IMG/VR virus record: IMGVR_UViG_3300029742_000285
Span: 1,475 to 65,474 of that record
Direction: 5' to 3' (one strand)
From: a virus
Lineage: Duplodnaviria > Heunggongvirae > Uroviricota > Caudoviricetes
DNA length: 64,000 bases
The translations under genes and the position numbers were made by a program. The notes beneath the pieces are model-generated. The model did no database searches, was not told the origin of the DNA, and was given only the letters and a program-made list of their open reading frames with translations. How positions within the stretch are numbered: the stretch's first letter is position 1; every line of letters starts with the position of its first letter. Below are positions 41,697 to 54,211 of this stretch, in pieces.

Positions 41697-42290
41697 ATGG
41701 ATGAATATTTAGTAAGAACAGCCAAAGCATTGGAGATAGCTCGAATGCGTTCCGGCTTGAGCCAGCAGAAATTGGCGGCAAAAATTGGCGTGAATCGTGG
41801 CACGATAGCAAATTGGGAGCAAGGTCTGGCAGCCATTTCCCTTCCGATGGCTATGCGCTGGTTCACCTGCTGCGGCGTATCGGCGGATCGATACATGGAC
41901 GCTTGCATTCACCCAGGGCTGCTGGAACACCTGGAAGAAGACCTTTCCGATCTGGAGAAACGGCGGATTCTCATAGATGCTATGATGGAGTGCTCCTCCT
42001 ATGAGATAGACGCCTTGTTGTACATCCGGTACGGAGATCACGGCTCAGACCACATCGGCGTATTGACGGAGATTCTGGCAAACCTCCACACGCCGTTGAA
42101 GGACAGGGTCGCTGTCTGCCGGATGGCATCCGGTAACTATGAGATGGCACAGGCTACCGGAACAGACCCAGACCCGAACGGTACCGCCCCAAAGATGGAA
42201 ATTCTCTATCAGGCACAGGACGCTGGAACAGAAGCAGCCATGAAGTCCAACGATTCCTATACCGTTAATCCAAATAATATAACTGGTTGA
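41697..42290 (+). CDS. XRE-family HTH regulator with C-terminal extension (second repressor-like protein)
   Basis: N-terminal HTH (LSQQKLAAKIGVNRGTIANWEQG). 197 aa. Confidence 0.45.
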   Translation: MDEYLVRTAKALEIARMRSGLSQQKLAAKIGVNRGTIANWEQGLAAISLPMAMRWFTCCGVSADRYMDACIHPGLLEHLEEDLSDLEKRRILIDAMMECSSYEIDALLYIRYGDHGSDHIGVLTEILANLHTPLKDRVAVCRMASGNYEMAQATGTDPDPNGTAPKMEILYQAQDAGTEAAMKSNDSYTVNPNNITG

Positions 42291-42335
42291 TTGTCGAATT
42301 ATCGCAGTTTTTGAAGAACATTCTGTCCACATTCA

Positions 42336-42526
42336 TCCACTTTTTGTACACCTATCGGGCAAAATTGCCTTGTCATTTCGTCCCCCATAGGCTGTAAATC
42401 GACAACATTCGTGCGGAATAAATAACGAATTAGCGTTAATATACTGTTTGTGATTGAGTGGCTTGTCAATCCGTCCCCCATCGTGCAGATTAGGTATACC
42501 TTTCCATCCACTTTTTGTACACCTAT
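42336..42526. repeat. Origin-associated repeats: two identical 21-bp direct repeats TCCACTTTTTGTACACCTATC, two inverted RepA iterons (GTCAWTYCGTCCCCCAT) and one DnaA-box-like site CTATCCACA
   Basis: Direct repeats at 42336-42356 and 42506-42526. Inverted iterons at about 42362-42380 and 42463-42481. DnaA-like box at 42523-42531. Confidence 0.5.
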
Positions 42527-42723
42527 CCACAGTCCGTCCACGTTTGGTATAGCTAATGGAAAGTCACTTCATCACCGGTACAGTCCTATTCAGCAAGCGA
42601 CAACTTGAGTTATCAACAAACTGGAATGGAAAAATAAAGAAATTGTTGAAAATTATCGTCATCGACTATTTAACGATGATATTTAACCTCTTGTTTATTT
42701 CTTGTTTAATATATAATATGTAG

Positions 42724-42835
42724 ACGGGGGACGAAATGACAAAGCATGGGGGACGTTTTGACAAGTCATGGGGGACAAAATGACGAGGATATGGGGGACA
42801 AAAAGACAAGTCACGGGGGACGAAAACGGTTGACA
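42724..42835 (+). repeat. Five tandem 22-bp iterons A(T/C)GGGGGAC(R)AAATGACAAGYC abutting the repA promoter
   Basis: Copies at 42724, 42746, 42768, 42791 and 42813. Preceded by an AT-rich stretch at 42600-42720. Confidence 0.6.
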
Positions 42836-42858
42836 CGTCCCCCTACTTGTGATATACT
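42830..42858 (+). promoter_or_regulatory. Sigma70 promoter TTGACA-17-TATACT for repA. Overlaps the last iteron.
   Basis: TTGACAcgtccccctacttgtgaTATACT. Confidence 0.5.
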
Positions 42859-42887
42859 GTTTTCAGACCATTAAAGGAAGTGAGCAG

Positions 42888-43964
42888 ATGCCAAAAATAT
42901 CAGACAACAACCTTGTCGAGAAAAGCAAATCCCTTGTTTGGGCGAAGTTCAGGGACTACACCGCAGGAGAACTTCGGTTGTTGGAGGTTTACCTATCAAG
43001 AATAAATCCGAGAGACCCTAACAGTAGCCGTGTGGAGTTCACTTTGGCAGAGTATAGAGACCTGCTCGGACTGAAAAGCCTTGACGCTAGGAGGATTGAG
43101 CCGCAGATCAAGCACTTTTTAGGCAATACGGTTTCGATTCCTATTGACAAGGAGAAAGGAACATTTGAAAGCTTTGTCCTATTCACGAGGGCAAAACTGG
43201 ACTATGTACCAGAAACAAGGTCTTACGTTGTGGCAATCACCTGCAACCCAGACCTTCGTTCTATCTTCTTTGACATCGCAGAAAGCGGCTATGTCCGGTA
43301 TCGGCTACGTTACACGTCACGGATGAAGTCGCAGTACAGCATCTTGCTCTATTCGATTCTTCGGGACTGGATGAACATGGACAGCAAACCGCATGAAATC
43401 AGTCTGAAGAAGTTGAGGGAACAGCTCGGTGCAACGGAAGCCAGCTACGATGTTTACAAGAACCTTCGCAAGCGAGTGCTTGACGTTGCGGTGGACGAAA
43501 TCAATGCTGTGTCTGACATTGTTGTGACTTACGAGCCAGTCCTTGTAGCGCGAAAAGCTGTGGCAGTCAAGTTTAAGCCAAAAATTAAAGCGTCTGAGAC
43601 GTTGATTGAAGCACAGGCAAGCGAAGTGTTGACCGAACCTCAAAAAGTCGTCAAAAAGCCCCGTAGAAGCGGATACGATGATTTTGACTGGTCTATGTGT
43701 GACGAACTAGAAAAGCAGGACTGCATTGATGTGGCGAAGGTAGTTGAGAAGTGGATGAAGAAAGAGCATCCTGAAATCAAGCTGCCAAGACGCAGAGAAG
43801 CGGTTTACGACACGGTGAAGGCGGCGTATAAGGACATTTTGTCTTTGGATAGGTCTCCGTTCCCGGACAGACCTGTTGGCTATCTGATTAGAAGCGTGGA
43901 CAAGGCGGGTATCGTAGACAGGTATATGCCAGCGTTCTATTCCATCGAAGCGTTGCAAAAGTAG
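42888..43964 (+). CDS. repA: Plasmid-type replication initiator (Rep_3 / RepA-like)
   Basis: N-terminal SLVWAKFRDYTAGELRLLEVYLSRINP motif typical of Rep_3 initiators. Iterons directly upstream. RBS AAAGGAAGTGAGCAG ATG. Confidence 0.65.
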   Translation: MPKISDNNLVEKSKSLVWAKFRDYTAGELRLLEVYLSRINPRDPNSSRVEFTLAEYRDLLGLKSLDARRIEPQIKHFLGNTVSIPIDKEKGTFESFVLFTRAKLDYVPETRSYVVAITCNPDLRSIFFDIAESGYVRYRLRYTSRMKSQYSILLYSILRDWMNMDSKPHEISLKKLREQLGATEASYDVYKNLRKRVLDVAVDEINAVSDIVVTYEPVLVARKAVAVKFKPKIKASETLIEAQASEVLTEPQKVVKKPRRSGYDDFDWSMCDELEKQDCIDVAKVVEKWMKKEHPEIKLPRRREAVYDTVKAAYKDILSLDRSPFPDRPVGYLIRSVDKAGIVDRYMPAFYSIEALQK

Positions 43965-44000
43965 TCAGATTATTCAGATAAAGTAGAAAGGAGAAAGAGT

Positions 44001-44282
44001 ATGATTCCGATGTTTCCGAAAGGCTTTGACAAAGACAAGTGGTACATGACTAAAGATGTTATGCCGGATAAAAGCCTAGAAGGATGGCCGCATGGGCTTT
44101 TACTTCGTATCGAAGATGAGAAAACAGGAGAAGAAAGTTTCATAACCGGCGAGTACGATACAATCAACGACAAATGGTTTGATTCCGATAGTAATGAAAT
44201 CAAAGGAACTGTAATTGCATGGCACGTCACGCCTGTGTTGTGGGTCGGAGACGAAATAAAAGCAGCATATCCGTTCTACTGA
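44001..44282 (+). CDS. Hypothetical protein (93 aa)
   Basis: RBS AGAAAGGAGAAAGAGT ATG. Confidence 0.3.
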   Translation: MIPMFPKGFDKDKWYMTKDVMPDKSLEGWPHGLLLRIEDEKTGEESFITGEYDTINDKWFDSDSNEIKGTVIAWHVTPVLWVGDEIKAAYPFY

Positions 44283-44299
44283 AAAGAAAGAGTGATAAA

Positions 44300-45067
44300 A
44301 TGGCAAAAATCATAGCTGTCGCTAACCAGAAGGGCGGCACAGGAAAGACCACCACAAGCACCTGTTTGGCTGGTGCGTTGCAGTTGCTTGGCAAGAAAGT
44401 CCTGCTGGTGGACTGCGATGCCCAGTGCAATGCAACGGACACCTACGGTGCACAGACAGAGAATGTTTGTACCCTGTTTGACGTGATGACCCGGCAAGGC
44501 ACGGTAGAGGAAGGAATCCAGCACTGTGAAGCCGGTGACATTCTTCCGTCTGACAGCGCATTGAAGGACATTGACGAGCAGCTTGTCCGGGACATGGGTA
44601 AGAACTTCCGACTGCGAGAAGCCCTTGAAAGTGTATCCGAGCAGTACGATTACATTGTACTGGACACTCCCCCGCAGCTCGGCCTTGCGCTTGTGAACGC
44701 ACTGATCGCCGCCAACAGCATTATCGTACCTATCACAGCAGACCGTTACGCACTGGCTGGTTTGAGCCAGCTTTCACAGACCATCGGTGATGTTCGTAGA
44801 TATTTCAACCCAACTTTGAAGATTGAAGGTCTGCTTCTGAACCAGTACAAAAGCAGGGAGAACCTGTCCAAAGAGGTTGTGGAGCAGCTTCCTGTGATTG
44901 CACAGAGCATGGGCACAACCCTGTTGGACGTGAAGATTAGACCGTCTATGGGCGTTCGTAAGGCTCAGGCAGAGCGTCACAGCCTGTTTAGCGGTGACAC
45001 GGCAAAGAGTACCAGTGCAGAGGATTTCAAAGCGTTGGCGAAGATGATTGTAGAGGGGGATGTGTAG
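44300..45067 (+). CDS. parA: ParA/Soj-family partition ATPase
   Basis: Deviant Walker A KGGTGKTTTS. About 255 aa. Confidence 0.8.
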   Translation: MAKIIAVANQKGGTGKTTTSTCLAGALQLLGKKVLLVDCDAQCNATDTYGAQTENVCTLFDVMTRQGTVEEGIQHCEAGDILPSDSALKDIDEQLVRDMGKNFRLREALESVSEQYDYIVLDTPPQLGLALVNALIAANSIIVPITADRYALAGLSQLSQTIGDVRRYFNPTLKIEGLLLNQYKSRENLSKEVVEQLPVIAQSMGTTLLDVKIRPSMGVRKAQAERHSLFSGDTAKSTSAEDFKALAKMIVEGDV

Positions 45068-45324
45068 TGAATGTAGTTAGATATAAAGAGCTGGAAAAAG
45101 CCGAGTTTGAATTGCAAAGCAAATTCAGCTCGAAAGATGTTATGTTTTTCCGCCGAGGGGATGGAATAGACAATCCGATTTATTATGTTGTTTCGCAAAG
45201 ACATTGTGGGGCGTTAAGTCCCGAAGAAGCCATAAAAGCCGGAAAAGTTTTGATTGAAGCTGGAAATGCGGCGAAATCTTTTCGGTACAACGGGTATTTT
45301 ATTGATTGGAGTGACACACAGTGA
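45067..45324 (+). CDS. Hypothetical protein (85 aa, GTG start overlapping parA stop)
   Basis: Translational coupling GTGTAGTGA. Confidence 0.3.
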   Translation: MNVVRYKELEKAEFELQSKFSSKDVMFFRRGDGIDNPIYYVVSQRHCGALSPEEAIKAGKVLIEAGNAAKSFRYNGYFIDWSDTQ

Positions 45325-45893
45325 AAAAGTCCAGCAAAAAAACATCCGGCTTGTTGGGCGGGTTTGACTTCCAGCCTATTTCTTCGGGGCGGGCATTAAG
45401 CCAAAGTGAGCCAAAGGAAGAAGAAGTAAGCCAAGCAAAGCCGAACGAAGCCGAACAAGCACAGATTAAGCCTAGTGAAGCCACAGACAGCCATACGCAG
45501 CCTAATGAAGCAATATTAAGCGATATTAAGCCGAAGCAAGCCAAAGACAGCGAAACACAGCCAAGCAATGCCATAGTAAGCGAAAGTAAGCCAAAGAAGC
45601 TGAAACAGGCGAAGGAAGTTCAACGTCTTATCGAACAAGGCGATGTTCCCGGCGCACTAGCCGAAGCTAGCTTGACAAAGAAAAAAATCCCGATGCCGGA
45701 ATCGCATCAGGGCGTTGCAAGTGGTGATGGCAAGCGTTCCAAGCGCATTACCATCCTTATGAGCGAGGAAGAGCGCAAGTACATCAACCGTGAAGCCAGA
45801 CGGCACGGAATGACGATTGGGCAGTTCGTGTACGCTCTTGCGGTTGCGGCGGCAGAAGGAAAGATTGAATTGGAGGATTTCTTAGATGAATGA
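45321..45893 (+). CDS. Ribbon-helix-helix (ParG/omega-like) protein. Long Pro/Lys/Glu-rich repetitive N-terminal region. The functional protein may be the C-terminal ~65 aa.
   Basis: C-terminal KRITILMSEEERKYINREARRHGMTIGQFV. DNA of the N-terminal part carries TAAGCC(A/G)AAG repeats. Confidence 0.4.
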   Translation: MKKSSKKTSGLLGGFDFQPISSGRALSQSEPKEEEVSQAKPNEAEQAQIKPSEATDSHTQPNEAILSDIKPKQAKDSETQPSNAIVSESKPKKLKQAKEVQRLIEQGDVPGALAEASLTKKKIPMPESHQGVASGDGKRSKRITILMSEEERKYINREARRHGMTIGQFVYALAVAAAEGKIELEDFLDE

Positions 45894-46281
45894 CGTATGG
45901 ATTGACATTGGGCAGAAATATGAAGCAATGGCAAATATGGGATGCAAGCCTTATGGCTTCAAGCGGGTTCCATCAAATTTTGTGTTTGACGAAGACAAGT
46001 CGGTAAAGTGGAACAAAGAGCAAGCGCAAAAGAATAACGATGATTACGACAATGAAGTTAAGCGGCTGAATCAAGAGAAAATGAAGCGTAGGGATGAAAT
46101 CTACGCAGAGATTTATAAGACAATTCAAGAAGAAGTCGGTTTTGGGATTTCAGAAAAGAAAGCGGAAAAAATTTGGGAGTACGCTTACGATAGAGGGCAT
46201 TCAGCAGGATGGTATGAAATAATCGTAAATTTGGAAGAAATTGAAGAATTTGCAAAGTTCATATTGGATAAAAAGAACTGA
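45886..46281 (+). CDS. Hypothetical protein (131 aa), first gene of an AT-rich 3-gene cassette
   Basis: ATG overlaps the RHH stop (ATGAATGA). Confidence 0.35.
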   Translation: MNDVWIDIGQKYEAMANMGCKPYGFKRVPSNFVFDEDKSVKWNKEQAQKNNDDYDNEVKRLNQEKMKRRDEIYAEIYKTIQEEVGFGISEKKAEKIWEYAYDRGHSAGWYEIIVNLEEIEEFAKFILDKKN

Positions 46282-46298
46282 GTTGGAGGATTTATTGG

Positions 46299-47180
46299 AT
46301 GAACGATAGTGAACGACACCTTATTCGATTTGTTTGCGATGGCGATATGCGAAACGCGCAAAAAGCCGTTAAAATCATTTTGAATTCTATATCATCCAAA
46401 AAAGATGAGCAGTTCAAGGAAAATATGTTTCGCAAGTTGGAAAGCAAAAGAGAATTTATTGAATTGCCATATAACTTACAGCATCTTTTGATCGCAGAGG
46501 ATACAGAAGAATTTCCAGAAGCAAGATTCCTTCTTAGGAACGAAGAAAAAAGTATAACGCAGAAAATCGTTGCTATTTATCGAGCATCTGAAAAATTGAA
46601 CGAAATGGGCATTCCTTATTTGCCAGCATTGATGCTTTATGGGCAAAGTGGATGCGGGAAAACCATGCTGGCTAGGTATATCGCGCATAAAGCAAAACTT
46701 CCGTTTTTGAGGATTCAATTTTCAAGTCTAGTTGATTCGCACTTGGGGCAAACACAATCTAACCTTGCAAGAATTTTTGATTATGTGAGAACTGCTCCTT
46801 GCGTTCTTTGTTTTGATGAAATAGATGCAGTTGGAATGGCTCGTGGGCAAAAAGATGACGTTGGGGAAATGAACCGTGTGGTTATCGCGATTATGCAGGA
46901 AATGGATAGATTGCCGAACAATGTAATTATTATTGGAACGGCAAACCGATTTGATAGGCTCGACCCTGCGCTTATAAGAAGATTTCCGTTGCAATACGAA
47001 TTAAAGCCGTTGTGCCGTGCGGATGCAGAAATACTTTCTAAAAGGTTCTTTGAATATGCAGGAGCACAATATGAAAACATAGCTTATGAAGATTACGTCC
47101 CAGCATCTACGGTTATCAAAGAATGTACAGAACGAATTGTAAATCAAGTTCTGAATCAAGAGGATTTCTTGGAGGATTGA
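46299..47180 (+). CDS. Classic-clade AAA+ ATPase with about 100-aa N-terminal domain of unknown function
   Basis: Walker A LYGQSGCGKTMLA, Walker B CVLCFDEIDAV, sensor/arginine-finger region TANRFDRLDPALIRRF. Confidence 0.7.
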   Translation: MNDSERHLIRFVCDGDMRNAQKAVKIILNSISSKKDEQFKENMFRKLESKREFIELPYNLQHLLIAEDTEEFPEARFLLRNEEKSITQKIVAIYRASEKLNEMGIPYLPALMLYGQSGCGKTMLARYIAHKAKLPFLRIQFSSLVDSHLGQTQSNLARIFDYVRTAPCVLCFDEIDAVGMARGQKDDVGEMNRVVIAIMQEMDRLPNNVIIIGTANRFDRLDPALIRRFPLQYELKPLCRADAEILSKRFFEYAGAQYENIAYEDYVPASTVIKECTERIVNQVLNQEDFLED

Positions 47181-47183
47181 CGA

Positions 47184-47462
47184 ATGGGCGTAACCATCAA
47201 ATGCAAAAAGACTGGGCGTGAAATGGATGTGGGCTATTTCGGGTTTTTCAAGTTGAGAACGAAGGTTGCAGAACTTGTTGGTTCGGAAGTCGGAGAGCAC
47301 TATAAAAAACTTGATGACATTCTCGACATACCATCTCCCGAAAAAGAACACGTTCTAGAATCATACAATGACGAAACAGAGCGATTGGTTGAAAGCAAAA
47401 TGCTTCCGATTAAAATTGCAGATTTCCTTTATCAATCGGACTGTGACGGAAAAATCCGATAA
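47184..47462 (+). CDS. Hypothetical protein (92 aa)
   Basis: Starts 3 nt after the AAA+ stop. Confidence 0.35.
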   Translation: MGVTIKCKKTGREMDVGYFGFFKLRTKVAELVGSEVGEHYKKLDDILDIPSPEKEHVLESYNDETERLVESKMLPIKIADFLYQSDCDGKIR

Positions 47463-47620
47463 GGTGCCTGCAAGGAAATCTTAAAAGTTATAGGTGATTA
47501 TGACGATAGCATTATTTGCGGATATGCTGGTAGAGAAAACCCCGCAAAGCTCAAAGACTTCAAAGAAATCCTTCAAGATTGTGTAGGCAATAAGTGCTTT
47601 ATGATTTGGAGATAACAATA

Positions 47621-47660
47621 AACCCCTGTGTAGTCACAATGACCGCACAGGGGTTCTGTT
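47621..47660. terminator. Bidirectional rho-independent terminator at the junction between elements A and B
   Basis: ACCCCTGTG-15nt-CACAGGGGT hairpin flanked by AATAAA (5') and TCTGTTTTA (3'). Confidence 0.5.
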
Positions 47661-48299
47661 TTACTTATCAGCAATGCAATCCCAGTAGAGATACGCCTTG
47701 CCATCTGCAGCATCTGCGTCTTCAAGGAACGCCTTTGCCATGTCAGCGTAGAAGCCCGAAGTGTCAACGGACTGACGCTTTGCCACCTGACAATAATCCG
47801 AGTACATCATGTTCATAACAGCCCAGAAATCGTTCGGGTCACAGGTGATATTGCGCTGTTTCGCAACGTCCTGCGTCTGTTCCAACGTCCAGTGACAGCC
47901 CTTTGTGCCGTCAGCGTTGACCATGCTGTCACACCATTCCTCTGCTTCATCGTGGGTGAGGTGCTGGCGTGGCATCCTGATTGAGCGGCTGTCTGCGCCG
48001 CCACGTTCGTACTGTCCAGACCGCTTGTCCCAGTCTCCGTTCTGCGAGAAGCCGATTTGCGGCATCTTGCGCCCATACTCTACGTCAGGGTAGCGGGGGA
48101 TAGGGTAAGGGTCGATGTAGCGGTTTTCCTCCTGCGGATAGTAGGGATAGCGGTCGTTGCCGCCTTCCAGCTTGCGCAGACGGCGTTCCATCTCACGCTC
48201 CCTGCGGTCACGCTCTTCCTCAAGGCGGTCACGCTCCGGCTCACGGTCTTTGTCGTGGTCGCGGAGCATCATCATGCGGCGAAAATTGTTCTTGCCCAT
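47661..48299 (-). CDS. Hypothetical protein with charged RD/RE-rich N-terminus, YPYYPQ segment and Cys-containing C-terminal domain
   Basis: 212-aa ORF, RBS AAGGAGGTATAG upstream. Confidence 0.35.
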   Translation of the reverse strand: MGKNNFRRMMMLRDHDKDREPERDRLEEERDRREREMERRLRKLEGGNDRYPYYPQEENRYIDPYPIPRYPDVEYGRKMPQIGFSQNGDWDKRSGQYERGGADSRSIRMPRQHLTHDEAEEWCDSMVNADGTKGCHWTLEQTQDVAKQRNITCDPNDFWAVMNMMYSDYCQVAKRQSVDTSGFYADMAKAFLEDADAADGKAYLYWDCIADK

Positions 48300-48312
48300 A
48301 ATCTATACCTCC

Positions 48313-48684
48313 TTAAGAAATGGACGCGGGCGCACCAGCGTGGGAACGGCAGAAGCAGCCAAAATACTTGAACGTGCCTGTGCCAGTGGCAGACGTTGCA
48401 ACGCGGGTAGCGTAGCGGGTGCGAGTGTGGATGCTTTCAGCGGTTGCCTGAGCGCAGTTGCAGTCGGTCAGAGGGTATGCGGTCGTTCCTGCACCGATGG
48501 TAATGACCACAGGAGCGTTGATGGTGGTCGTGTCCGGGATGCTCTGGGCAACTACGATGCAATACTTCTCTCCGTTCTGGTATGCGCCAGCAGGGATGTT
48601 GATGGTCAGCGTGTCATTGGCGAACGTCACCGCATCCGAGATGACGAGGTGCGGGCACAGACGGCAGCTTGTTTTGCAAGCCAT
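48313..48684 (-). CDS. Thr/Ala-rich, Cys-containing small protein of unknown function
   Basis: 123 aa. CxxC near the N-terminus, CNC and CFC motifs. Confidence 0.35.
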   Translation of the reverse strand: MACKTSCRLCPHLVISDAVTFANDTLTINIPAGAYQNGEKYCIVVAQSIPDTTTINAPVVITIGAGTTAYPLTDCNCAQATAESIHTRTRYATRVATSATGTGTFKYFGCFCRSHAGAPASIS

Positions 48685-48770
48685 AATGTTTTCCTCCTAT
48701 AAAAATCAGGGGCAGAGGTGTCTTGCCCCTGCCCCGATGGTTCACCCGGTGTTATCGGGGAGTGTGTTGG

Positions 48771-49643
48771 TTAGCAGCAGCCGCAGCAGTTCACGCCCAC
48801 GTTGGGGTTTGCCACCTGATAAGCGGGAATCGGACGAGGATTGACCCGATTCAGGATGGTATCAGTCTGCTGGGACATCACGGTGGTCAGAAGCGCATTC
48901 TGCCGATCCTGAGAAGCGGCAAACTTGAGGTTCTGGTTCTCAGCGGTCAGAGTTGCGATCTTGTCCTGCGTGAAGTAGTCCATCATGCTGCGGAAGTTGG
49001 CGTTGCAGTTGTCCACGATGGCGCGGGCATTGTCTGCGATGGCCTGCCGGGTGGCACAGTCTTCCGTTGCGATGGTGTACTTCAGGTCGCCGATCAGCTG
49101 CTTGTTCTCGCAGCAGCAAGATGCCAGCTGCGTGGCAAGAGCGGTCTGACCCGCCTGCCGTGCGTTGCCTTCCTGCATGATAGCAAGGCTGATGGCATTG
49201 TCGCCGTTGGACACGCTGCGTTCCAGGCCGTTCACCAGCTGTGCGTTCTGGTAGCCAAGCTGACAGATGGCACTGTTCACGCCTGCAAAGCCGTTCGCGA
49301 TGTTGGTGTTGACGCCGTTGATCTGCGCCAGCTGGTCATACCCCAGAGAGCAGATACCGCTCTGGATGCCCGCCAGAGAGCGGGAGGTATCCTGCTGATA
49401 AAAGCCCTCAGACAGAGCCGCGCGGGTGTCGTTGCCGCCCTGCCCGGTTGCGCCAGTGCCGACCAGATAGGGGATGTAGCTCGCCATACCGTTGTCGCTG
49501 CCGTTGCGCCCGTTGCCGTAGTTGCCCCAGCCGAAGATGATAGCGAGGATAATAACAGCCCAAAGACCCTCGTTGCCGAAGAATCCGCCGTTGTTATTGC
49601 CGCCGTCCTGCCCAGCCAGATAGCCAGTTGCAAAATCGTCCAT
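48771..49643 (-). CDS. Gly/Asn-rich membrane-anchored protein with internal repeats and C-terminal CCGCC
   Basis: Starts MDDFATGY. TM helix LWAVIILAIIFGW. Repeats GIQSGICSLGY / VNSAICQLGY. Ends VNCCGCC. Confidence 0.35.
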   Translation of the reverse strand: MDDFATGYLAGQDGGNNNGGFFGNEGLWAVIILAIIFGWGNYGNGRNGSDNGMASYIPYLVGTGATGQGGNDTRAALSEGFYQQDTSRSLAGIQSGICSLGYDQLAQINGVNTNIANGFAGVNSAICQLGYQNAQLVNGLERSVSNGDNAISLAIMQEGNARQAGQTALATQLASCCCENKQLIGDLKYTIATEDCATRQAIADNARAIVDNCNANFRSMMDYFTQDKIATLTAENQNLKFAASQDRQNALLTTVMSQQTDTILNRVNPRPIPAYQVANPNVGVNCCGCC

Positions 49644-49782
49644 AACAAAACTCCTTTCAGTTTTGCGTATGCTATCCCACCGCCGTATGCGATGGGCGAA
49701 GCCAAACAAATGCGGTTTTTGTCAAGTCCGCAAAACTGAGAAGCGTTTCGCTTAGAGAGATGCTTATTTTAGGGTTGTTAAG

Positions 49783-49944
49783 TCAGCTCGGAGGGTTGCC
49801 TTTTTTATCTTTTGAGTCATCCCAATTTTTGCTGGCAGCACCGAAAATGAAGCCAAGCATTAAAGGAACCCATATTTTGTCATCGCCACACAGATTGTTG
49901 ATGTCAAAATCTTTTTCGGAATGGCTGTTTTCAAAATCATCCAT
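49783..49944 (-). CDS. Small membrane protein (53 aa), MDDF-start paralog of the downstream gene N-terminus
   Basis: RBS GAAGTGAGGAGACTTTGCA ATG. TM helix IWVPLMLGFIFGAA. Confidence 0.3.
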   Translation of the reverse strand: MDDFENSHSEKDFDINNLCGDDKIWVPLMLGFIFGAASKNWDDSKDKKGNPPS

Positions 49945-49956
49945 TGCAAAGTCTCC

Positions 49957-50208
49957 TCACTTCGGAAGCGTCAAATTCAGGACGCTTGCCAGCTGGTTCA
50001 GGTCGATGCCACGCTCTTTGGCGAGGTTCTGCGCCATCGTTCGGAGTTGCGCTTCGTTTTTGCCCTGAATCAGGTTCAAGCCCTGCATGATAGGAGCATT
50101 CTGCCCGCTTAACTGCTGGATAAGACCCATCGGGTTTTGTCCGGCACGAGCCAGATTTGCAAGCTGCATGATAGGGCTGTGAGTAATCATATCAAACGGA
50201 GAGGACAT
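49957..50208 (-). CDS. Hypothetical Gln/Leu-rich protein (83 aa)
   Basis: ORF in the operon. Confidence 0.3.
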   Translation of the reverse strand: MSSPFDMITHSPIMQLANLARAGQNPMGLIQQLSGQNAPIMQGLNLIQGKNEAQLRTMAQNLAKERGIDLNQLASVLNLTLPK

Positions 50209-50211
50209 CGC

Positions 50212-50730
50212 TTATTCTCCTTTCTTCGCTGCGGCAGTGGGTTTAGAAAAGCTCTTCTGCCACTTTTCCAGTTCATCCAGACGGTGGACGAGGGTGTTGT
50301 ACTGCTCAATAGGCACATACTGCTGTGTCGGTGCAGCGGTCTGCTGTGCCTGTTGTGCTTGCATCTGCCGCCATGCTTCCGGGCTGTAAAACTCCTGCAC
50401 ATAGGATTCGCAGGTGTCTGGGTTAAGCCGCTTGCAGTAGATCACGCCGCTGCGCAAGTCTGGGCAGTAGGTCGGTCTGCCATACAGGTCTGAAGGTATT
50501 GCCAAAAATTCTTCCCTGCTGGAAACAGGTCTGCCGAGCAGCCAACCGCCATCTTGTGCCGACTGCTGAACAGGCTGCTGCCCATTCATCGGCTGCGGAC
50601 GCTGCGGTTGTGCCTGTTGCATCTGCGTGTTGGGCAGGGAAGTGGCAAGCCCTACCGTGCCCATGCCGCCGTAAGGATTGACAGGCTGCTGCGGAACGTA
50701 AGGCGCTCCGGGTGCCGGATAATAGCTCAT
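50212..50730 (-). CDS. Pro/Gln-rich low-complexity protein with Cys-containing C-terminal domain
   Basis: Start MSYYPAPGAPYVPQQP preceded by CAAGGAGGGATG. Confidence 0.35.
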   Translation of the reverse strand: MSYYPAPGAPYVPQQPVNPYGGMGTVGLATSLPNTQMQQAQPQRPQPMNGQQPVQQSAQDGGWLLGRPVSSREEFLAIPSDLYGRPTYCPDLRSGVIYCKRLNPDTCESYVQEFYSPEAWRQMQAQQAQQTAAPTQQYVPIEQYNTLVHRLDELEKWQKSFSKPTAAAKKGE

Positions 50731-50884
50731 AAAACATCCCTCCTTGTGCATCCAGTGTACCGCATCGGCAGAAACCGAGAGACAACGAACGCACAACGAA
50801 GGGCAAAAAAGAAAAGCGGCAGACCCGAAAGCCTGCCGCTTCAATGCGTTTCGTGAGAAATCACACCCAATTAAAATTATGGTA

Positions 50885-51178
50885 TCACACATCCAGCATT
50901 TTATCAATGATTTTCAACCTATTGCCGATTGATGTCCGACAATACGGCACACGCGCTGCAATATCAACTTGGCATAGCTGGTCAACGTACCGCAACCGGG
51001 CGATTTTCCGGTCATACCTCCCAAGCGGCGCACGTTTTATCACAGCTTTTATCTGTTCTGCATTAAGCCCTTGCAACGCTGGCGGAAAGACTATGCGAGC
51101 CGCCGCCACAGGCAGCACCGAGCCAGAAGGGCTGCGGCAGCTGTCCGGCGTTGCGCACCATAGTGCCAAGCGCGGCAA
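50885..51178 (-). CDS. Sigma-70 region-4-like HTH segment. Possibly the C-terminal part of a frameshifted ArpU/RinA-like late regulator continuing from the 51063-51341 frame.
   Basis: LNAEQIKAVIKRAPLGRYDRKIARLRYVDQLCQVDIAARV resembles sigma region 4. Overlaps a second ORF (51063-51419) in another frame. Confidence 0.25.
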   Translation of the reverse strand: MPRLALWCATPDSCRSPSGSVLPVAAARIVFPPALQGLNAEQIKAVIKRAPLGRYDRKIARLRYVDQLCQVDIAARVPYCRTSIGNRLKIIDKMLDV

Positions 51179-51351
51179 ACCGGTGACAAAACGTCACCAT
51201 TTCGCCAACGTTGTCAAAATGGTATGTTTTCGTGAGACCACGAAAACGTGCGCAGACCATTTTCGTGGCGTGCCGAAATTGCTCTTGTGCGGCGTACATT
51301 TTGCTGGTGTCAACAAAATGCTCGTATGTAGTGCTTGCCATGATATCCTCC

Positions 51352-51576
51352 TTACAGTGTGATTTCCTCAGCGTTCGCCTTGTCTTTCGCATCCAGAGCG
51401 TCGTAGTACGCCTGTGCAAGGGCTTCCACCTCTGCGATATCGTCCTCCGTCAGCAGGCCGCTGTCCAGATGGGTGTACGCTTTGTCCAGCCAGTATGCCA
51501 CATCGCGTCCTGCGGCGATTTCTCGCTTGATGGAGCGCAGGGTCAGGTCGTGGCGGGCTTTGGATTTAATTGCCAT
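51352..51576 (-). CDS. Hypothetical protein (74 aa)
   Basis: RBS AAGGAGG upstream. Confidence 0.3.
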   Translation of the reverse strand: MAIKSKARHDLTLRSIKREIAAGRDVAYWLDKAYTHLDSGLLTEDDIAEVEALAQAYYDALDAKDKANAEEITL

Positions 51577-51586
51577 GTGTGCCTCC

Positions 51587-52759
51587 TTATGTGGTAGTCA
51601 TGGACGCGATTGCGTCCTCCAGCTTTTTGATTGCGATGTTTACGTCCCTCTGATACCCCAGCCGGATTCCCGCACCGTCACCAGCCTGCACCACCGTGTC
51701 AGGGCCGTAAGTGGTAAGGGCTTTGTAGGCGGCGATTTCGTCAGGGGTGAGCGGGGTTTCGATGGGAGTGGCGAGTATTGCATTCTGCTCAGCCAACGGC
51801 TTGGTGCTGTCGAAAGCCGCTTTATCTACCCTCTGCACTCGCACCCCTCTCTCCAAGTCCACCTCGTCACACATCCACTGCTGGCCTGTGCTGTCAGTGT
51901 AGCTGCCGCCAGAGGCGACGGGGATGCCGGGTAAGCCGCCGGGTGTGGGGAGCGTGAGGAGCTGTTCACGGTAGGGGGAGTAGGCGGTGATAGCGTTTCT
52001 TGTTAAAGAAACTTGAACAGTGGTATTTAACGTTGTACCTTTTTTGATTTGTAGGCGGAGTGAAAACTCCACGTCTCTGGTAAGCGTTACTTTCTGGTTT
52101 TGCACATCAGAGGAATATTTCCCGACGAAATAGAAGTTGAGCGTGACAGAAGGACTTAGCCCACTAGCCGTTAGGTAGTAAATACCACGAGTTAAAGGGT
52201 GTGCCACATCATCGTGTAAGAGTATGGTAAAATCGTTGGTAGCCGTACCAGTAATTAAAAAACCATTTTCATAGGTAGTGTAAGTTATTCCGTATACGGT
52301 CGATTTCACACCGGGTTTAGTGCCCTCTAGCATGTTTGCTCCCGTTACTTTCACCGCCACGCTCCCGTTCTCGCCAGCGCTCACGATAGGCACAGGTGCA
52401 TCCGGCGTGGGTGTGCCGTCCTGCGTGCCGCTGTTGGCGCTGACACGGTAGTGCAGGTCTGCGCTGGTGACGGTCTTTGCGCCGTCGCTACCCTCAAAGG
52501 TGACGCACCCGCTCCCGGGCTGTGCGGTCACGCTGGCAGGCACGTCCACATAGCCGTCCACCACCAGCGAGGCGGGAGGATCAGCGCCACCGGGGATGTG
52601 CCAAAATGCCCGGATAGCCAGCCCGGCCCACTCGCCGGTTGCATCGACGTGCAGGCGGTACACGCCTCGGTTCTTGGTGTAGCCAAAGCGCACCAGCTGC
52701 TCATAGCCCGGCACTTTGACGACGCCATTGGATGCGAGAGATACGCTTTGCTCGATCAT
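51587..52759 (-). CDS. Beta-rich hypothetical protein (390 aa) downstream of the lysis cassette. Fiber/receptor-binding-like or cargo.
   Basis: Thr/Gly/Val-rich, no TM. Position after the holins. Confidence 0.35.
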   Translation of the reverse strand: MIEQSVSLASNGVVKVPGYEQLVRFGYTKNRGVYRLHVDATGEWAGLAIRAFWHIPGGADPPASLVVDGYVDVPASVTAQPGSGCVTFEGSDGAKTVTSADLHYRVSANSGTQDGTPTPDAPVPIVSAGENGSVAVKVTGANMLEGTKPGVKSTVYGITYTTYENGFLITGTATNDFTILLHDDVAHPLTRGIYYLTASGLSPSVTLNFYFVGKYSSDVQNQKVTLTRDVEFSLRLQIKKGTTLNTTVQVSLTRNAITAYSPYREQLLTLPTPGGLPGIPVASGGSYTDSTGQQWMCDEVDLERGVRVQRVDKAAFDSTKPLAEQNAILATPIETPLTPDEIAAYKALTTYGPDTVVQAGDGAGIRLGYQRDVNIAIKKLEDAIASMTTT

Positions 52760-52762
52760 AAA

Positions 52763-53098
52763 TTACTCCTTGTTGATGGTAGGCTTCTTTTCTGCCAGTG
52801 CCTTTTTCATCATGCTGACAGCCTTTTCAATCACACTGTCCAGCACTTCATCGGTGATGAAAGGCTTCAGCCAGTCCGGCAGGGCGCCGCGCAGCGCAGC
52901 AAAGACCTGTGCCTTTTTCTTGGCACCCTGACCGCTGCCCATGATGCTGTCCTCGGCGATGGTCACGAGCTCCAGTGCCCACTGCTTGACGTACTGCTTG
53001 TAGCCCAGCCGGATGGCACCAACGGCCAGCGCGGCAAAGCCGATGAGCATCAGTACCAGTGCGATGGGTGCGGGGATAAAATTAAACATTGCTTCCAT
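52763..53098 (-). CDS. Holin
   Basis: 111 aa, two N-terminal TM helices, charged C-terminus. Adjacent to the endolysin. Confidence 0.5.
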   Translation of the reverse strand: MEAMFNFIPAPIALVLMLIGFAALAVGAIRLGYKQYVKQWALELVTIAEDSIMGSGQGAKKKAQVFAALRGALPDWLKPFITDEVLDSVIEKAVSMMKKALAEKKPTINKE

Positions 53099-53101
53099 AA
53101 T

Positions 53102-53359
53102 TTAAGCTCCTTTCTGCTGTTCAAGATCTTCAATGCGATGGTTTGCCACCTTAATTTGTTCTTCCAGCACTGGCACACGCTGAGCGAAATTATTGTGCGC
53201 CCGGACTTCCCGGGCCAGCTCGTCCAGCTTAGTGTCGGTAATGGCCTGCTGTTTTTCCAGCTTGGCGTCCATGTTTTGAGCGGCCCTGCTGTTAGAGATA
53301 AGCACGCCGATCAGGCTCAGGCCGCCAGTTATGAGTGCTACGATGATCGCGTCGCTCAT
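53102..53359 (-). CDS. Holin-like / XhlA-like small membrane protein
   Basis: Start MSDAIIVALITGG overlapping the endolysin stop. One TM helix followed by a coiled coil. Confidence 0.4.
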   Translation of the reverse strand: MSDAIIVALITGGLSLIGVLISNSRAAQNMDAKLEKQQAITDTKLDELAREVRAHNNFAQRVPVLEEQIKVANHRIEDLEQQKGA

Positions 53360-54009
53360 TCGCCCTCCCGGAGACGGGTCAGACCCTTCTTGCTGATGAT
53401 ACCCGTATAGTCCTTGTATGCGTGGGACATGTCCACGTTGGTGGTCACACCGGGTACACGGGCCTTGCTGGTATACTGCCACATGCCAAAGGGCCAGCTG
53501 GGCGCGGGCTTCTTCGTGCGGTAGGCAGCCAGCCACACGTCGAAGGGCTTCAGGGCCGCGCCGCCCATGTAGAGGAAGGTACTGCCAAACCACAGGCCAG
53601 TGTAGAGCAGAGCATACACGCCCCAGCTTTCCACCGTGCTCAGCATGTGAGCCGTCAGGTTGGTCAGTGCGGCCTTGTCCAGCGGCTTCTGCGCCTCGTC
53701 CTCGATGTCCACGGCCACCGGCAGCTCAAAGCTCCGGCCGGTGAGCAGCTTTTTGAAATAGGCCAGCTCCTTGTCGGCCTGTTCCCGGTTGACTGCCTTA
53801 AAATAGCCATACACGCCGCAGGGAATGCCCAGCCGCTTGCATTCTGCATAGTTGCGGGCAAGCTGTGGGTCAGTGTAGGGAGCACTGGGCCTGCCCGATC
53901 CGCTGTTGCCCATGGCACGAATCATCACGCCGTCCACCTTCCCGCTTGCCTTGACCTTCTCCCAGTCGATCGTGCCCTGATATCGGGACACATCCATGAT
54001 TTCAGTCAT
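53356..54009 (-). CDS. Endolysin, glycoside hydrolase family 25 (muramidase)
   Basis: DVSRYQGTIDW motif. Start MTEIMDV with RBS AAGGAGG. Confidence 0.75.
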   Translation of the reverse strand: MTEIMDVSRYQGTIDWEKVKASGKVDGVMIRAMGNSGSGRPSAPYTDPQLARNYAECKRLGIPCGVYGYFKAVNREQADKELAYFKKLLTGRSFELPVAVDIEDEAQKPLDKAALTNLTAHMLSTVESWGVYALLYTGLWFGSTFLYMGGAALKPFDVWLAAYRTKKPAPSWPFGMWQYTSKARVPGVTTNVDMSHAYKDYTGIISKKGLTRLREGE

Positions 54010-54019
54010 AGCGTCCTCC

Positions 54020-54211
54020 TTACTGCGTGATTTCCTCAAAGCCGCTCTTGATGAGAATTGCCTTGACCTTCTCCTTCAGCAGGCGGGGGCAACGCTCGTA
54101 CAGAGCCTTTGCGTCCTCCATAGTCTCAGCGAACATAATTTCCTGTGCCCACAACTTAGCCATCATACGTACCAACCTTTCTAATTTTTGTGTGATTTTA
54201 TGCATAAACAA
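54020..54211 (-). CDS. Hypothetical small protein (XkdX-like position)
   Basis: 63-aa ORF between fiber and lysin. Confidence 0.3.
   Translation of the reverse strand: MFMHKITQKLERLVRMMAKLWAQEIMFAETMEDAKALYERCPRLLKEKVKAILIKSGFEEITQ

What the first reader, a model, noticed from the sequence alone, without database searches (positions are those of the whole stretch)
47661..50730. Unexplained operon of low-complexity, Cys-bearing and membrane proteins at the end of element B (MDDF paralogs, CCGCC terminus)
Six minus-strand genes follow the lysis cassette of element B. Their products are a Pro/Gln-rich protein, a Gln/Leu-rich 83-aa protein, a 53-aa MDDF-start membrane peptide, a 291-aa MDDF-start Gly/Asn-rich TM protein with GIxSxICxLGY repeats ending in VNCCGCC, a Thr/Ala-rich Cys protein, and a charged RD/RE protein with a YPYYPQ segment. 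None resembles standard phage structural, lysis or lysogeny functions. The composition is reminiscent of cross-linked coat/exosporium-like or secreted matrix proteins. Moron or lysogenic-conversion cargo is possible.
Basis: seen in the sequence. Interest (0 to 1): 0.6.

Follow-up and report, generated by a model that had tools for sequence, protein, structure and literature searches.

The report
Conserved unknown-function gut-phage gene module
The six odd genes are real and belong to a tightly ordered gene module found in thousands of gut phages of unrelated hosts, whose proteins match nothing characterised, so the function is still open.

Summary
All six minus-strand ORFs exist as described and are real genes. 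dN/dS against a 90%-identical relative is 0.05-0.19.

They are not private cargo of this prophage. The order g1-g2-g4(-g5-g6) recurs in 34 of 37 diverse phage loci: Oscillospiraceae prophages, cultured Clostridium perfringens phages, crAss-like and Bacteroides phages, and viruses assigned to Methanomassiliicoccales. The g4 family has 2,566 clusters at 50% identity and no Pfam model.

The module sits at different genome positions. It is preceded by an intrinsic terminator in 13/22 loci against 26/147 background, and often by a small sigma-region-4/GerE-like regulator.

My best reading (about 0.35) is a self-regulated, very late accessory module that builds a membrane-anchored, Cys- or metal-linked stalk-and-knob complex. 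The lysogenic-conversion and spore-coat readings are weakly supported.

The element does not end at the cassette. A Rep3/ParA plasmid-type module follows it.

The parts
50885..51178 (-). g0: small sigma-70 region-4 / LuxR-GerE-like HTH protein. The true start is uncertain; about 77 aa in the relative L009. Candidate regulator of the module.
   Evidence: phrog_36 'transcriptional regulator', E 0.0027. 66% identical to the L009 77-aa ORF. Small Sigma70_r4/Sigma70_r4_2/GerE proteins are the most frequent upstream neighbour across 25 diverse loci. No Pfam hit for the window copy itself.
50813..50842 (-). Intrinsic-terminator-like hairpin (13-bp stem plus T-run) between g0 and g1.
   Evidence: A terminator-like hairpin lies upstream of g1 in 13/22 diverse loci against 26/147 control ORFs.
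50212..50730 (-). g1: 172 aa. Pro/Gln-rich N-terminus, a small conserved middle domain and a C-terminal helix. First core gene.
   Evidence: phrog_21718, 3.3e-9. A local HMM finds it directly upstream of g2 in 34 of 37 diverse loci. dN/dS 0.05.
49957..50208 (-). g2: 83 aa, Gln/Leu/Met-rich, probably helical. Second core gene; often overlaps the g1 stop codon in relatives.
   Evidence: dN/dS 0.07. No family hit.
49783..49944 (-). g3: 53 aa. Partial duplicate of the g4 N-terminus: acidic tail, TM helix, short Lys-rich tail. A variable indel.
   Evidence: Alignment score 51 against shuffles of 22 +/- 4. Absent in L009 and in most of 65 close relatives.
48771..49646 (-). g4: 291 aa, the signature protein. 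Acidic Gly/Asn-rich N-tail, TM helix (LWAVIILAIIFGWG), coiled-coil region with 29-residue repeats, invariant CCC, Pro-rich PxPAYxVxNP segment, and Cys-rich tail CCGCC.
   Evidence: phrog_16490, 7e-39. 4,445 homologues. 2,566 clusters at 50% identity. Conserved columns. CCC in 203/212 and at least 3 Cys in the last 15 residues in 170/212 full-length homologues. dN/dS 0.19.
48709..48735 (-). Terminator-like hairpin (10-bp stem, 8 GC pairs) between g4 and g5.
48313..48684 (-). g5: 123 aa. Eight-strand beta-sandwich with a flexible N-terminal arm carrying C3-x3-C7-x2-C10 and a Cys-bearing C-terminal tail.
47661..48299 (-). g6: 212 aa. Disordered Arg/Asp/Glu- and Tyr/Pro-rich N-half with one charged helix (residues 23-46), plus a C-terminal all-alpha DUF7841 domain (111-212).
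47623..47653 (-). 8-bp GC-rich inverted repeat (CCCCTGTG...CACAGGGG) followed by a T-rich run, just after the g6 stop. Terminator-like end of the unit.
   Evidence: Read directly from the sequence. The 15-nt loop exceeds the limit of the scanner used.

Best explanation
The locus is one copy of a widespread, self-contained accessory module of gut Caudoviricetes. Its order is: small sigma-region-4-like regulator (g0), terminator, g1, g2, (g3), g4, g5, g6.

Shown:
- The genes are real and under purifying selection.
- Their order is conserved in phages of Bacillota. g4 and DUF7841 extend to Bacteroidota phages, and g4 alone to viruses assigned to methanogenic archaea.
- The module sits at different genome positions.
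- It is usually insulated from upstream genes by a terminator.
- No product has a characterised homologue.

Inferred mechanism:
- g0, made at the tail end of the upstream (late) operon, switches on the module's own promoter. The products would then appear very late.
- g4 inserts in the cytoplasmic membrane through its single TM helix. The acidic N-tail is outside and the bulk is most likely inside.
- g4 oligomerises into a coiled-coil stalk whose CCC motif and Cys-rich tail form metal- or disulfide-linked knots.
- g5, a fibre-tip-like beta-sandwich with a CxxxCxxC arm, docks on that tail.
- g1 and g2 act as assembly helpers. g6 (DUF7841 with a charged spacer) is a soluble partner.
- The complex acts at the membrane at the end of the cycle, on release, lysis timing or exclusion of superinfecting phage. 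It does not act as a toxin or a virion building block.
For: Reality and conservation.

Cross-phylum spread:
- The g4 HMM hits C. perfringens phage CPD1 (4e-22) together with g5 (2e-16).
- tblastn and HMM hits in crAss-like and Bacteroides phages are at 1e-26.
- DUF7841 occurs in the Bacteroides phage C3_41T2LP cassette at 5e-16.
- The vir215 gene is annotated phrog_16490.
- A g5-like plus DUF7841 fusion exists in a crAss-like virus.

Autonomy:
- The insertion site varies.
- Terminators are enriched upstream, OR 6.7, p 9e-5.
- AT-rich stretches with TATAAT-like hexamers follow the terminator in several loci (read by eye).
- Sigma70_r4/GerE-type small proteins are the commonest upstream neighbour.

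Membrane anchoring:
- Only g3 and g4 have a hydrophobic helix.
- In 144 family members the N-tail carries 0.5 K/R against 3.1 D/E. The C-flank is more basic than the N-flank in 58 sequences and less basic in 21.

Stalk and knots:
- 29-residue repeats vary in copy number, 0 to 2 copies.
- There is weak similarity to coronavirus HR1 coiled coils.
- CCC and the Cys tail are near-universal.

g5 fold.

Accessory status:
- g3 is an indel and deletion chimeras exist.
- No match in phiCrAss001 among the 35 records matched by tblastn with cr116_1 gp022.
- The three crAss-cassette proteins and the scaffold-like neighbour that I searched (cr116_1 gp022, gp023, gp024, gp027) match no crassvirus virion chain in the PDB.
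Against: - No step of the mechanism has been observed. The g4-g5 contact, the oligomeric state, metal binding and the timing of expression are all inferred.
- Topology is only weakly predicted, because K/R are scarce on both flanks.
- The window's g0 has no Pfam sigma hit of its own. The upstream regulators belong to several sequence families.
- Promoters were matched by consensus only.
- Position inside head or tail operons in several phages and the fibre-tip fold of g5 fit a virion role equally well.
- Phages already carrying a holin and endolysin have no obvious need for another lysis device.
Confidence: 0.35

Rival explanations
1. Virion-associated accessory fibre. g4 is the stalk and g5 a separately encoded tip or adhesin, in the manner of T2 gp37 plus gp38. 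g1 and g2 are fibre-assembly chaperones. The Cys residues lock the assembly by disulfides after release from the reducing cytoplasm.
For: - The module lies between portal and capsid genes, between capsid and connector genes, or just after fibre-like genes.
- No signal peptide was seen by eye on the soluble products; no predictor was run.
- Natural in-frame chimeras join a fibre N-terminus with collagen repeats to the g4 C-half.
Against: - g4 has a strongly hydrophobic TM-type helix (mean hydropathy 1.95 over 17 residues), which is unusual for a fibre.
- The module moves between phages with unrelated virion architectures (siphovirus-type and crassvirus), which is hard for a part that must dock on a specific virion site.
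- phiCrAss001 is not among the tblastn matches of the crAss g4 homologue, and the crAss cassette proteins searched match no solved crassvirus virion chain.
- The fold similarity is weak.
- The chimeras may be defective deletion variants.
Confidence: 0.22
2. One reading: lysogenic-conversion or moron cargo expressed from the prophage. It would make a cross-linked, coat- or exosporium-like surface or matrix layer, or a superinfection-exclusion device, on the lysogen.
For: - Terminator-flanked autonomous unit.
- Position next to the attachment site or integrase, or at the prophage-host junction, in several temperate phages.
- Cys-, Tyr-, Gly/Asn- and Arg/Asp-rich composition.
- A GerE-type neighbour.
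Against: - The same module occurs in crAss-like phages with lysis and capsid genes next to it and no integrase nearby, and inside structural operons.
- Base composition equals that of the rest of the phage (GC 0.54-0.57).
- No signal peptide was seen by eye on the soluble products.
- No homology to coat, exosporium or Ena families.
- Bacteroides hosts do not sporulate.
Confidence: 0.12
3. Spanin-like or fusion-type last step of lysis. g4 would act as a one-piece membrane-spanning coiled coil with a Pro-rich, Cys-linked distal end that disrupts an outer layer after holin and endolysin have acted.
For: - The architecture (TM anchor, coiled coils, Cys, Pro-rich end) recalls Rz plus Rz1. That comparison is from established knowledge of lambda spanins.
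- The module is close to holin/endolysin genes in the window, L002, L008, L021 and cr116_1.
- crAss annotators called it 'spike protein' because of HR1-like repeats.
Against: - I saw no lipobox or lipoprotein signal in any cassette protein by reading the sequences.
- Most carriers infect monoderm Clostridia, which have no outer membrane.
- The charge pattern favours the bulk being cytoplasmic.
- In many phages the module is far from the lysis genes.
Confidence: 0.08
4. A cytoplasmic host-takeover, anti-defence or metal/redox module that merely uses g4 as a membrane tether.
For: - Conserved Cys motifs that look like metal sites (CxxxCxxC, CCC, CCGCC).
- All partners lack an evident export signal.
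- Some versions carry mini HExxH metallopeptidases.
- Spread across host phyla suggests a universal target.
Against: - No hit to any PADLOC model.
- No enzymatic domain in the window's copy.
- Low-complexity and fibrous features are atypical for inhibitors.
- This reading is purely speculative.
Confidence: 0.1

Closest known systems
Phage 'morons' (autonomous promoter-gene-terminator inserts such as lambda bor/lom and HK97 gp15)
   Same: The module occupies different positions between conserved genes in different phages. It is flanked by terminator-like hairpins and is dispensable, as shown by indels, deletion variants and absence in related phages.
   Different: It has five to seven genes in a fixed order, with a regulator placed upstream. 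Its base composition is the same as the host phage. It is conserved across host phyla and present in phages with no integrase nearby. Expression from the prophage has not been shown.
Lambda Rz/Rz1 spanins
   Same: N-terminal membrane anchor, coiled-coil segments, functionally conserved Cys residues, a Pro-rich distal segment, and frequent proximity to holin/endolysin genes.
   Different: There is no lipoprotein partner or lipobox. The hosts are mostly monoderm. The predicted topology is the opposite one. It has four soluble partners. There is no sequence or profile similarity.
Separately encoded fibre-tip adhesins (T2/T6 gp38 on gp37) and tail-fibre tip domains (T7 gp17, Pa193 gp47)
   Same: g5 is a small free-standing beta-sandwich whose fold resembles fibre tip domains. 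It is encoded directly after a fibrous protein.
Cys-knotted fibres: Ena endospore appendages (DUF3992) and collagen-type cystine knots
   Same: Flexible N-terminal arm with conserved Cys on a beta-sandwich subunit (g5). Adjacent Cys (CCC, CCGCC) at defined points of a coiled coil (g4). This is the same design logic as covalently locked fibres.
phi29 p16.7 and T4 holin T/antiholin RI (single-pass phage membrane proteins with a large soluble domain)
   Same: One N-terminal TM helix followed by a coiled-coil or globular domain. A truncated paralogue (g3) could modulate the full-length protein.
   Different: There is no sequence similarity. g4 is Cys-rich and repeat-bearing, and it comes with four conserved soluble partners.

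Membership tests
Pfam DUF7841 (PF25223) | Match to the family profile above the gathering score | tested here: met
   g6 residues 111-202: 90 bits against a 25.2-bit cut-off, E 1.6e-25. Homologues carry the precomputed PF25223 assignment.
PHROG families of unknown function (phrog_16490, phrog_21718, phrog_36614) | Profile match | tested here: met
   g4 7e-39, g1 3e-9, g5 6e-4 (the last is weak). All three are annotated 'unknown function'.
Spanins (i-/o-/u-spanin) | Outer-membrane lipoprotein component or lipobox signal | tested here: not met
   I found no lipobox after a signal peptide in g1-g6 by reading the sequences. No predictor was run. There is no spanin hit in PHROGs, Pfam or NCBIfam.
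Spanins (i-/o-/u-spanin) | Type II (N-in, C-out) anchor with a periplasmic coiled coil, in a host with an outer membrane | tested here: inconclusive
   A TM helix and coiled coil are present. The flank charges favour N-out/C-in. Most hosts are monoderm Clostridia, which is an inference from the phage relatives.
Holins | Match to a holin family, or a small protein with at least one TM helix and a charged C-tail encoded next to the endolysin | tested here: not met
   No holin profile hits g3 or g4. The phage has its own Holin_LLH at 52763-53098 next to a GH25 endolysin. g3 has only the generic shape.
Ena / DUF3992 endospore appendage and spore-coat proteins | Sequence or fold match to DUF3992 or coat families | tested here: not met
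Tail-fibre tip / receptor-binding domain | Fold match to a known tip domain | tested here: inconclusive
Tail-fibre tip / receptor-binding domain | Presence in the virion | not testable with these tools
   No proteomic data were found for any carrier phage.
Moron | Own terminator and promoter, inserted at variable sites | tested here: met
   Terminators: 13/22 against 26/147. Sites vary. Promoters are supported only at consensus level.
Moron | Base composition different from the surrounding phage | tested here: not met
   GC is 0.545-0.573 across the cassette against 0.54-0.58 for the adjacent phage DNA.
Moron | Expression from the repressed prophage | not testable with these tools
   Needs transcript data.
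Known anti-phage defence systems | Match to a PADLOC model | tested here: not met
   There is no significant hit for g1-g6. The only hit is the neighbouring AAA ATPase, which matches IetA.

The most novel reading that the evidence does not exclude
The module is a previously undescribed, self-regulated 'very late' apparatus shared by gut viruses of Bacillota, Bacteroidota and possibly methanogenic archaea. It would build a Cys- or metal-locked, membrane-anchored stalk-and-knob structure for a step of the viral cycle that has no described machinery. Candidate steps are a new mode of egress or lysis control, or a post-lysis protective or adhesive matrix adapted to the gut.
Probability: 0.2. Interest if true: 0.85.

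Novelty: categorically new. Interest (0 to 1): 0.62.

Why it matters
The g4 family alone has about 2,500 clusters at 50% identity. It occurs in some of the most abundant human-gut phage lineages: a roughly 58-kb phage-plasmid-like group with dozens of near-identical viral contigs, and many crAss-like phages. No member of the module has a named function, a Pfam family (except one DUF) or a solved fold.

A fixed gene order kept across phages of monoderm, diderm and possibly archaeal hosts implies a host-independent function that current models of the phage cycle do not include.

Two cultured carriers make it directly testable: C. perfringens phage CPD1 and its relatives, and Bacteroides uniformis phage C3_41T2LP. 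If the module turns out to be a dispensable decoration, the result still assigns thousands of 'hypothetical' gut-virome genes to one unit.

Tried and rejected
- PDB sequence searches with g4, g5, g6, the g4 profile and the crAss versions found nothing useful. The only hits were E about 0.1 to coronavirus HR1 peptides, which explains the 'spike protein/glycoprotein' label in crAss records.
- The afdb50 fold library was unavailable.
- By eye, the N-terminus of the crAss and Bacteroides g4 looked like a fused g2. The HMM test did not support this (domain E 0.03 in a 12-sequence set), so it was dropped. The same applies to g1 against crAss gp024 (E 0.002-0.01, coiled-coil part only).
- Defence-system models gave no hit.
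- Rfam scan of 47300-53200 gave only a chance miRNA hit at E 0.69.
- Literature searches for DUF7841, the PHROG ids, the carrier phages and crAss 'spike protein' found no functional or proteomic data. The virion-proteomics paper on phiCP39O/CP26F is not held, and those phages were not among the tblastn matches of the CPD1 g4 homologue.
- Chimeric proteins joining g1, g2 or the fibre N-terminus to the g4 C-half were considered as evidence for a fibre role. I set them aside because the protein search only detects in-frame survivors.
- sigma-70 promoter scan upstream of g1 in the window gave no convincing match.
Full report
**1. The observation**

The six ORFs are on the minus strand at the stated coordinates and have the stated features.
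- g1, 50212-50730: 172 aa, Q/P-rich.
- g2, 49957-50208: 83 aa, L/Q-rich.
- g3, 49783-49944: 53 aa, starts MDDF, one hydrophobic helix.
- g4, 48771-49646: 291 aa, starts MDDF, G/N-rich, two GIxSxICxLGY units 29 residues apart, ends VNCCGCC.
- g5, 48313-48684: 123 aa, T/A-rich, 8 Cys.
- g6, 47661-48299: 212 aa, D/R/E-rich, contains YPYYPQ.

g3 is a significant partial duplicate of the g4 N-terminus. The alignment score is 51 against 22.4 +/- 4.1 for shuffles.

These are genes, not chance ORFs.
- g4 has 4,445 database homologues, g5 has 1,364 and g6 has 228.
- Against the 90%-identical relative L009, dN/dS is 0.05, 0.07, 0.19, 0.15 and 0.16 for g1, g2, g4, g5 and g6.

**2. Surroundings in the window**

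Upstream on the same strand lie, in order:
- tail genes (Sipho_Gp37, Gp10_C);
- a GH25 endolysin (53356-54039);
- a Holin_LLH (52763-53098);
- a 390-aa fibre-like protein whose relatives carry collagen repeats;
- a 74-aa and a 118-aa ORF;
- a small HTH protein, g0 (50885-51178).

A 13-bp-stem terminator (50842-50813) separates g0 from g1. A second terminator lies between g4 and g5. A GC-rich hairpin with a T-run follows g6.

Downstream, on the opposite strand, are a Rep3 initiator, ParA, an IetA-like AAA ATPase and a CI-type HTH gene.

In L009 the same place holds an integrase and a CI-like repressor. In about 60 of 65 near-identical IMG/VR viral contigs (30-60 kb) the ParA block is adjacent to the cassette. 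The element is therefore a roughly 58-kb phage with a plasmid-type maintenance module, and the cassette lies between its late region and that module. It is not at the end of the element.

**3. The cassette is a conserved module, not private cargo**

Local HMMs for g1, g2, g4, g5 and g6 find the colinear order g1-g2-g4, usually followed by g5 and often by g6. This holds in 34 of 37 diverse loci taken from annotated phages, metagenomic contigs, MAGs and IMG/VR.

Carriers include:
- lemur and rodent gut phages;
- cultured Clostridium perfringens phages (CPD1, XP41-N3, 17DYC, HMD-PC1, PMQ04, CPQ4);
- many crAss-like phages and the cultured Bacteroides uniformis phage C3_41T2LP, where g4 scores 1e-26 and DUF7841 scores 5e-16;
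- viruses assigned to Methanomassiliicoccales.

A profile search of 1.84 billion representatives gives 2,566 g4 clusters at E of 1e-3 or better, and 1,409 at 1e-10 or better.

A crAss-like virus protein fuses a g5-like beta-domain to DUF7841. This links g5 and g6 functionally.

In some lineages g5 is replaced by another Cys-bearing beta-rich protein, and small HExxH peptidases are appended.

**4. Position and transcription**

The module is found in several positions:
- after tail and lysis genes (window, L002, L003, L008, L021);
- between portal and scaffold/capsid genes (L001, L016);
- between the capsid and connector genes (L022-L024, L092);
- next to an integrase or the prophage-host junction (L004-L006, L008, L009, L014, L020, L090);
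- in crAss-like cr116_1, between the lysis/terS genes and the scaffold-like and capsid genes.

A terminator-like hairpin lies within 300 nt upstream of g1 in 13 of 22 diverse loci, against 26 of 147 control ORFs. The odds ratio is 6.7 and p = 9e-5. AT-rich stretches with TATAAT-like hexamers follow in several loci (read by eye).

The commonest upstream neighbour is a 76-134-aa Sigma70_r4/GerE-type protein. It reaches Pfam significance in at least 6 of 25 loci, and the same sequence pattern is visible in about 10.

The module is therefore an insulated transcription unit that tends to travel with its own small regulator. Base composition does not differ from the rest of the phage.

**5. The proteins**

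g4:
- It has an acidic, Gly/Asn-rich N-tail of about 30 residues and one strongly hydrophobic helix containing the conserved FGWG.
- A region of 29-residue repeats follows, with 0 to 2 copies among homologues.
- It has an invariant CCC, a conserved coiled-coil segment (DKIAxLxAENQxLKxAASQ) and a Pro-rich PxPAYxVPNP segment.
- It ends in a Cys/Gly tail.
- CCC occurs in 203 of 212 full-length homologues. At least 3 Cys lie in the last 15 residues in 170 of 212.
- K/R are scarce on both flanks of the helix, but the N-tail is acidic (0.5 K/R against 3.1 D/E). The C-flank is more basic than the N-flank in 58 sequences and less basic in 21. This weakly favours N-out/C-in.

g5:
- The AF2 model is good (pLDDT 80.7, pTM 0.74). 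It shows an eight-strand beta-sandwich with floppy Cys-bearing ends; C7 and C10 are invariant.
- Foldseek against viral models finds family members first, then C-terminal tip domains of tail fibres.

g6:
- The N-half is disordered with one charged helix.

g1 and g2 have no family beyond a PHROG of unknown function. I saw no signal peptide or lipobox in any product by eye. No defence model matches.

**6. What it most likely is**

The shown facts point to a portable, dispensable, self-contained module with one membrane protein and four soluble partners. It is kept in fixed order in phages whose hosts have very different envelopes.

That portability argues against a part that must dock on a particular virion. 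The crAss versions I searched match none of the solved crassvirus virion chains, and phiCrAss001 was not among the tblastn matches. The occurrence in crAss-like phages with no integrase nearby, and inside structural operons, argues against lysogenic conversion as the general role.

I therefore favour a very late, g0-activated module that builds a membrane-anchored g4 stalk, cross-linked or metal-bridged through its Cys motifs and capped by g5. g1, g2 and g6 would be helpers. The complex would act at the cytoplasmic membrane at the end of the cycle, on release, lysis timing or exclusion.

Every mechanistic step is inference, and I put the whole at about 0.35. The main rival, at about 0.22, is a virion-associated accessory fibre locked by post-lysis disulfides. 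The g5 fold and the frequent placement among structural genes support that rival.

**7. Comparison with known systems**

The unit meets the structural definition of a moron in two respects, variable site and own terminators. It fails the composition criterion, and its expression in lysogens is untested.

It resembles spanins in outline but lacks the lipoprotein component and the right hosts. It resembles Ena fibres and collagen cystine knots in design logic but not in sequence or fold.

g6 is a bona fide DUF7841 member. g4, g1 and g5 belong to PHROGs of unknown function. I found no paper that mentions these families.

**8. Verdict**

The locus is one instance of a large, uncharacterised, cross-phylum gut-phage module. 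It is distant from every described system, and cultured carriers make it testable.

Noticed in passing
window 41697-47462 (+ strand): A plasmid-type maintenance block sits where the close relative L009 has an integrase and CI-like repressor. It comprises a CI-like HTH_3 gene, a Rep3 initiator (42849-43964) and ParA (44219-45067). The ParA block is adjacent to the cassette in about 60 of 65 near-identical viral contigs, so this abundant ~58-kb gut phage looks like a phage-plasmid.
   Followed up: partly
window 46299-47180 (+): The AAA ATPase matches the defence protein IetA (PADLOC 1.8e-54). The gene after it (47184-47462, 92 aa) is too small to be the IetS protease. The IetA gene is present in only a minority of the close relatives.
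   Followed up: partly
window 51587-52759 (-): A 390-aa protein directly after the holin has no family hit. Its relatives carry collagen triple-helix repeats (P0066). A 105-nt stretch is 77% identical to the gene after the portal in Dulem virus 35. It is probably a fibre gene placed downstream of the lysis genes.
   Followed up: partly
P0054, P0062, P0066, P0068, P0070 (relatives of window 48771-52759): Single-contig proteins join the N-terminus of the fibre-like protein, g1 or g2 in frame to the C-terminal half of g4, at short shared motifs such as AQQAGQTA or IMQEGN. These are apparent microhomology deletions that remove part of the cassette.
   Followed up: partly
window 49767-49967: The g3 gene is an insertion/deletion polymorphism. 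It is absent in L009 and in most of the 65 close IMG/VR relatives, and present in roughly a third.
   Followed up: yes
L009 7566-9019: The close relative has about 1.45 kb of extra DNA, with two ORFs of 146 and 239 aa and no Pfam hit, between the g0 region and g1. The window has only the terminator there.
   Followed up: no
window 51063-51419 and 50885-51178 (-): A 118-aa ORF (MASTTYEH..., good RBS) overlaps the 5' part of the g0 ORF in another frame. The real start of g0 is unclear, and the region has a ~70-nt length difference from L009.
   Followed up: no
window 48204-48243: A 21-bp unit is repeated 1.9 times inside the Arg/Asp/Glu-rich part of g6. This suggests the charged helix grows by tandem duplication.
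   Followed up: no
L015 4600-5223 (CPD1_038) and L019 3934-4554: Homing-endonuclease-like genes sit inside or right next to the module. In C. perfringens phage CPD1 one lies between g2 and g4. In Bacteroides phage C3_41T2LP one lies just upstream of g4.
   Followed up: no
window 1-24000: A second phage-like region lies here, with a 1,280-aa ORF at 2661-6503 and many minus-strand ORFs. It was not examined.
   Followed up: no
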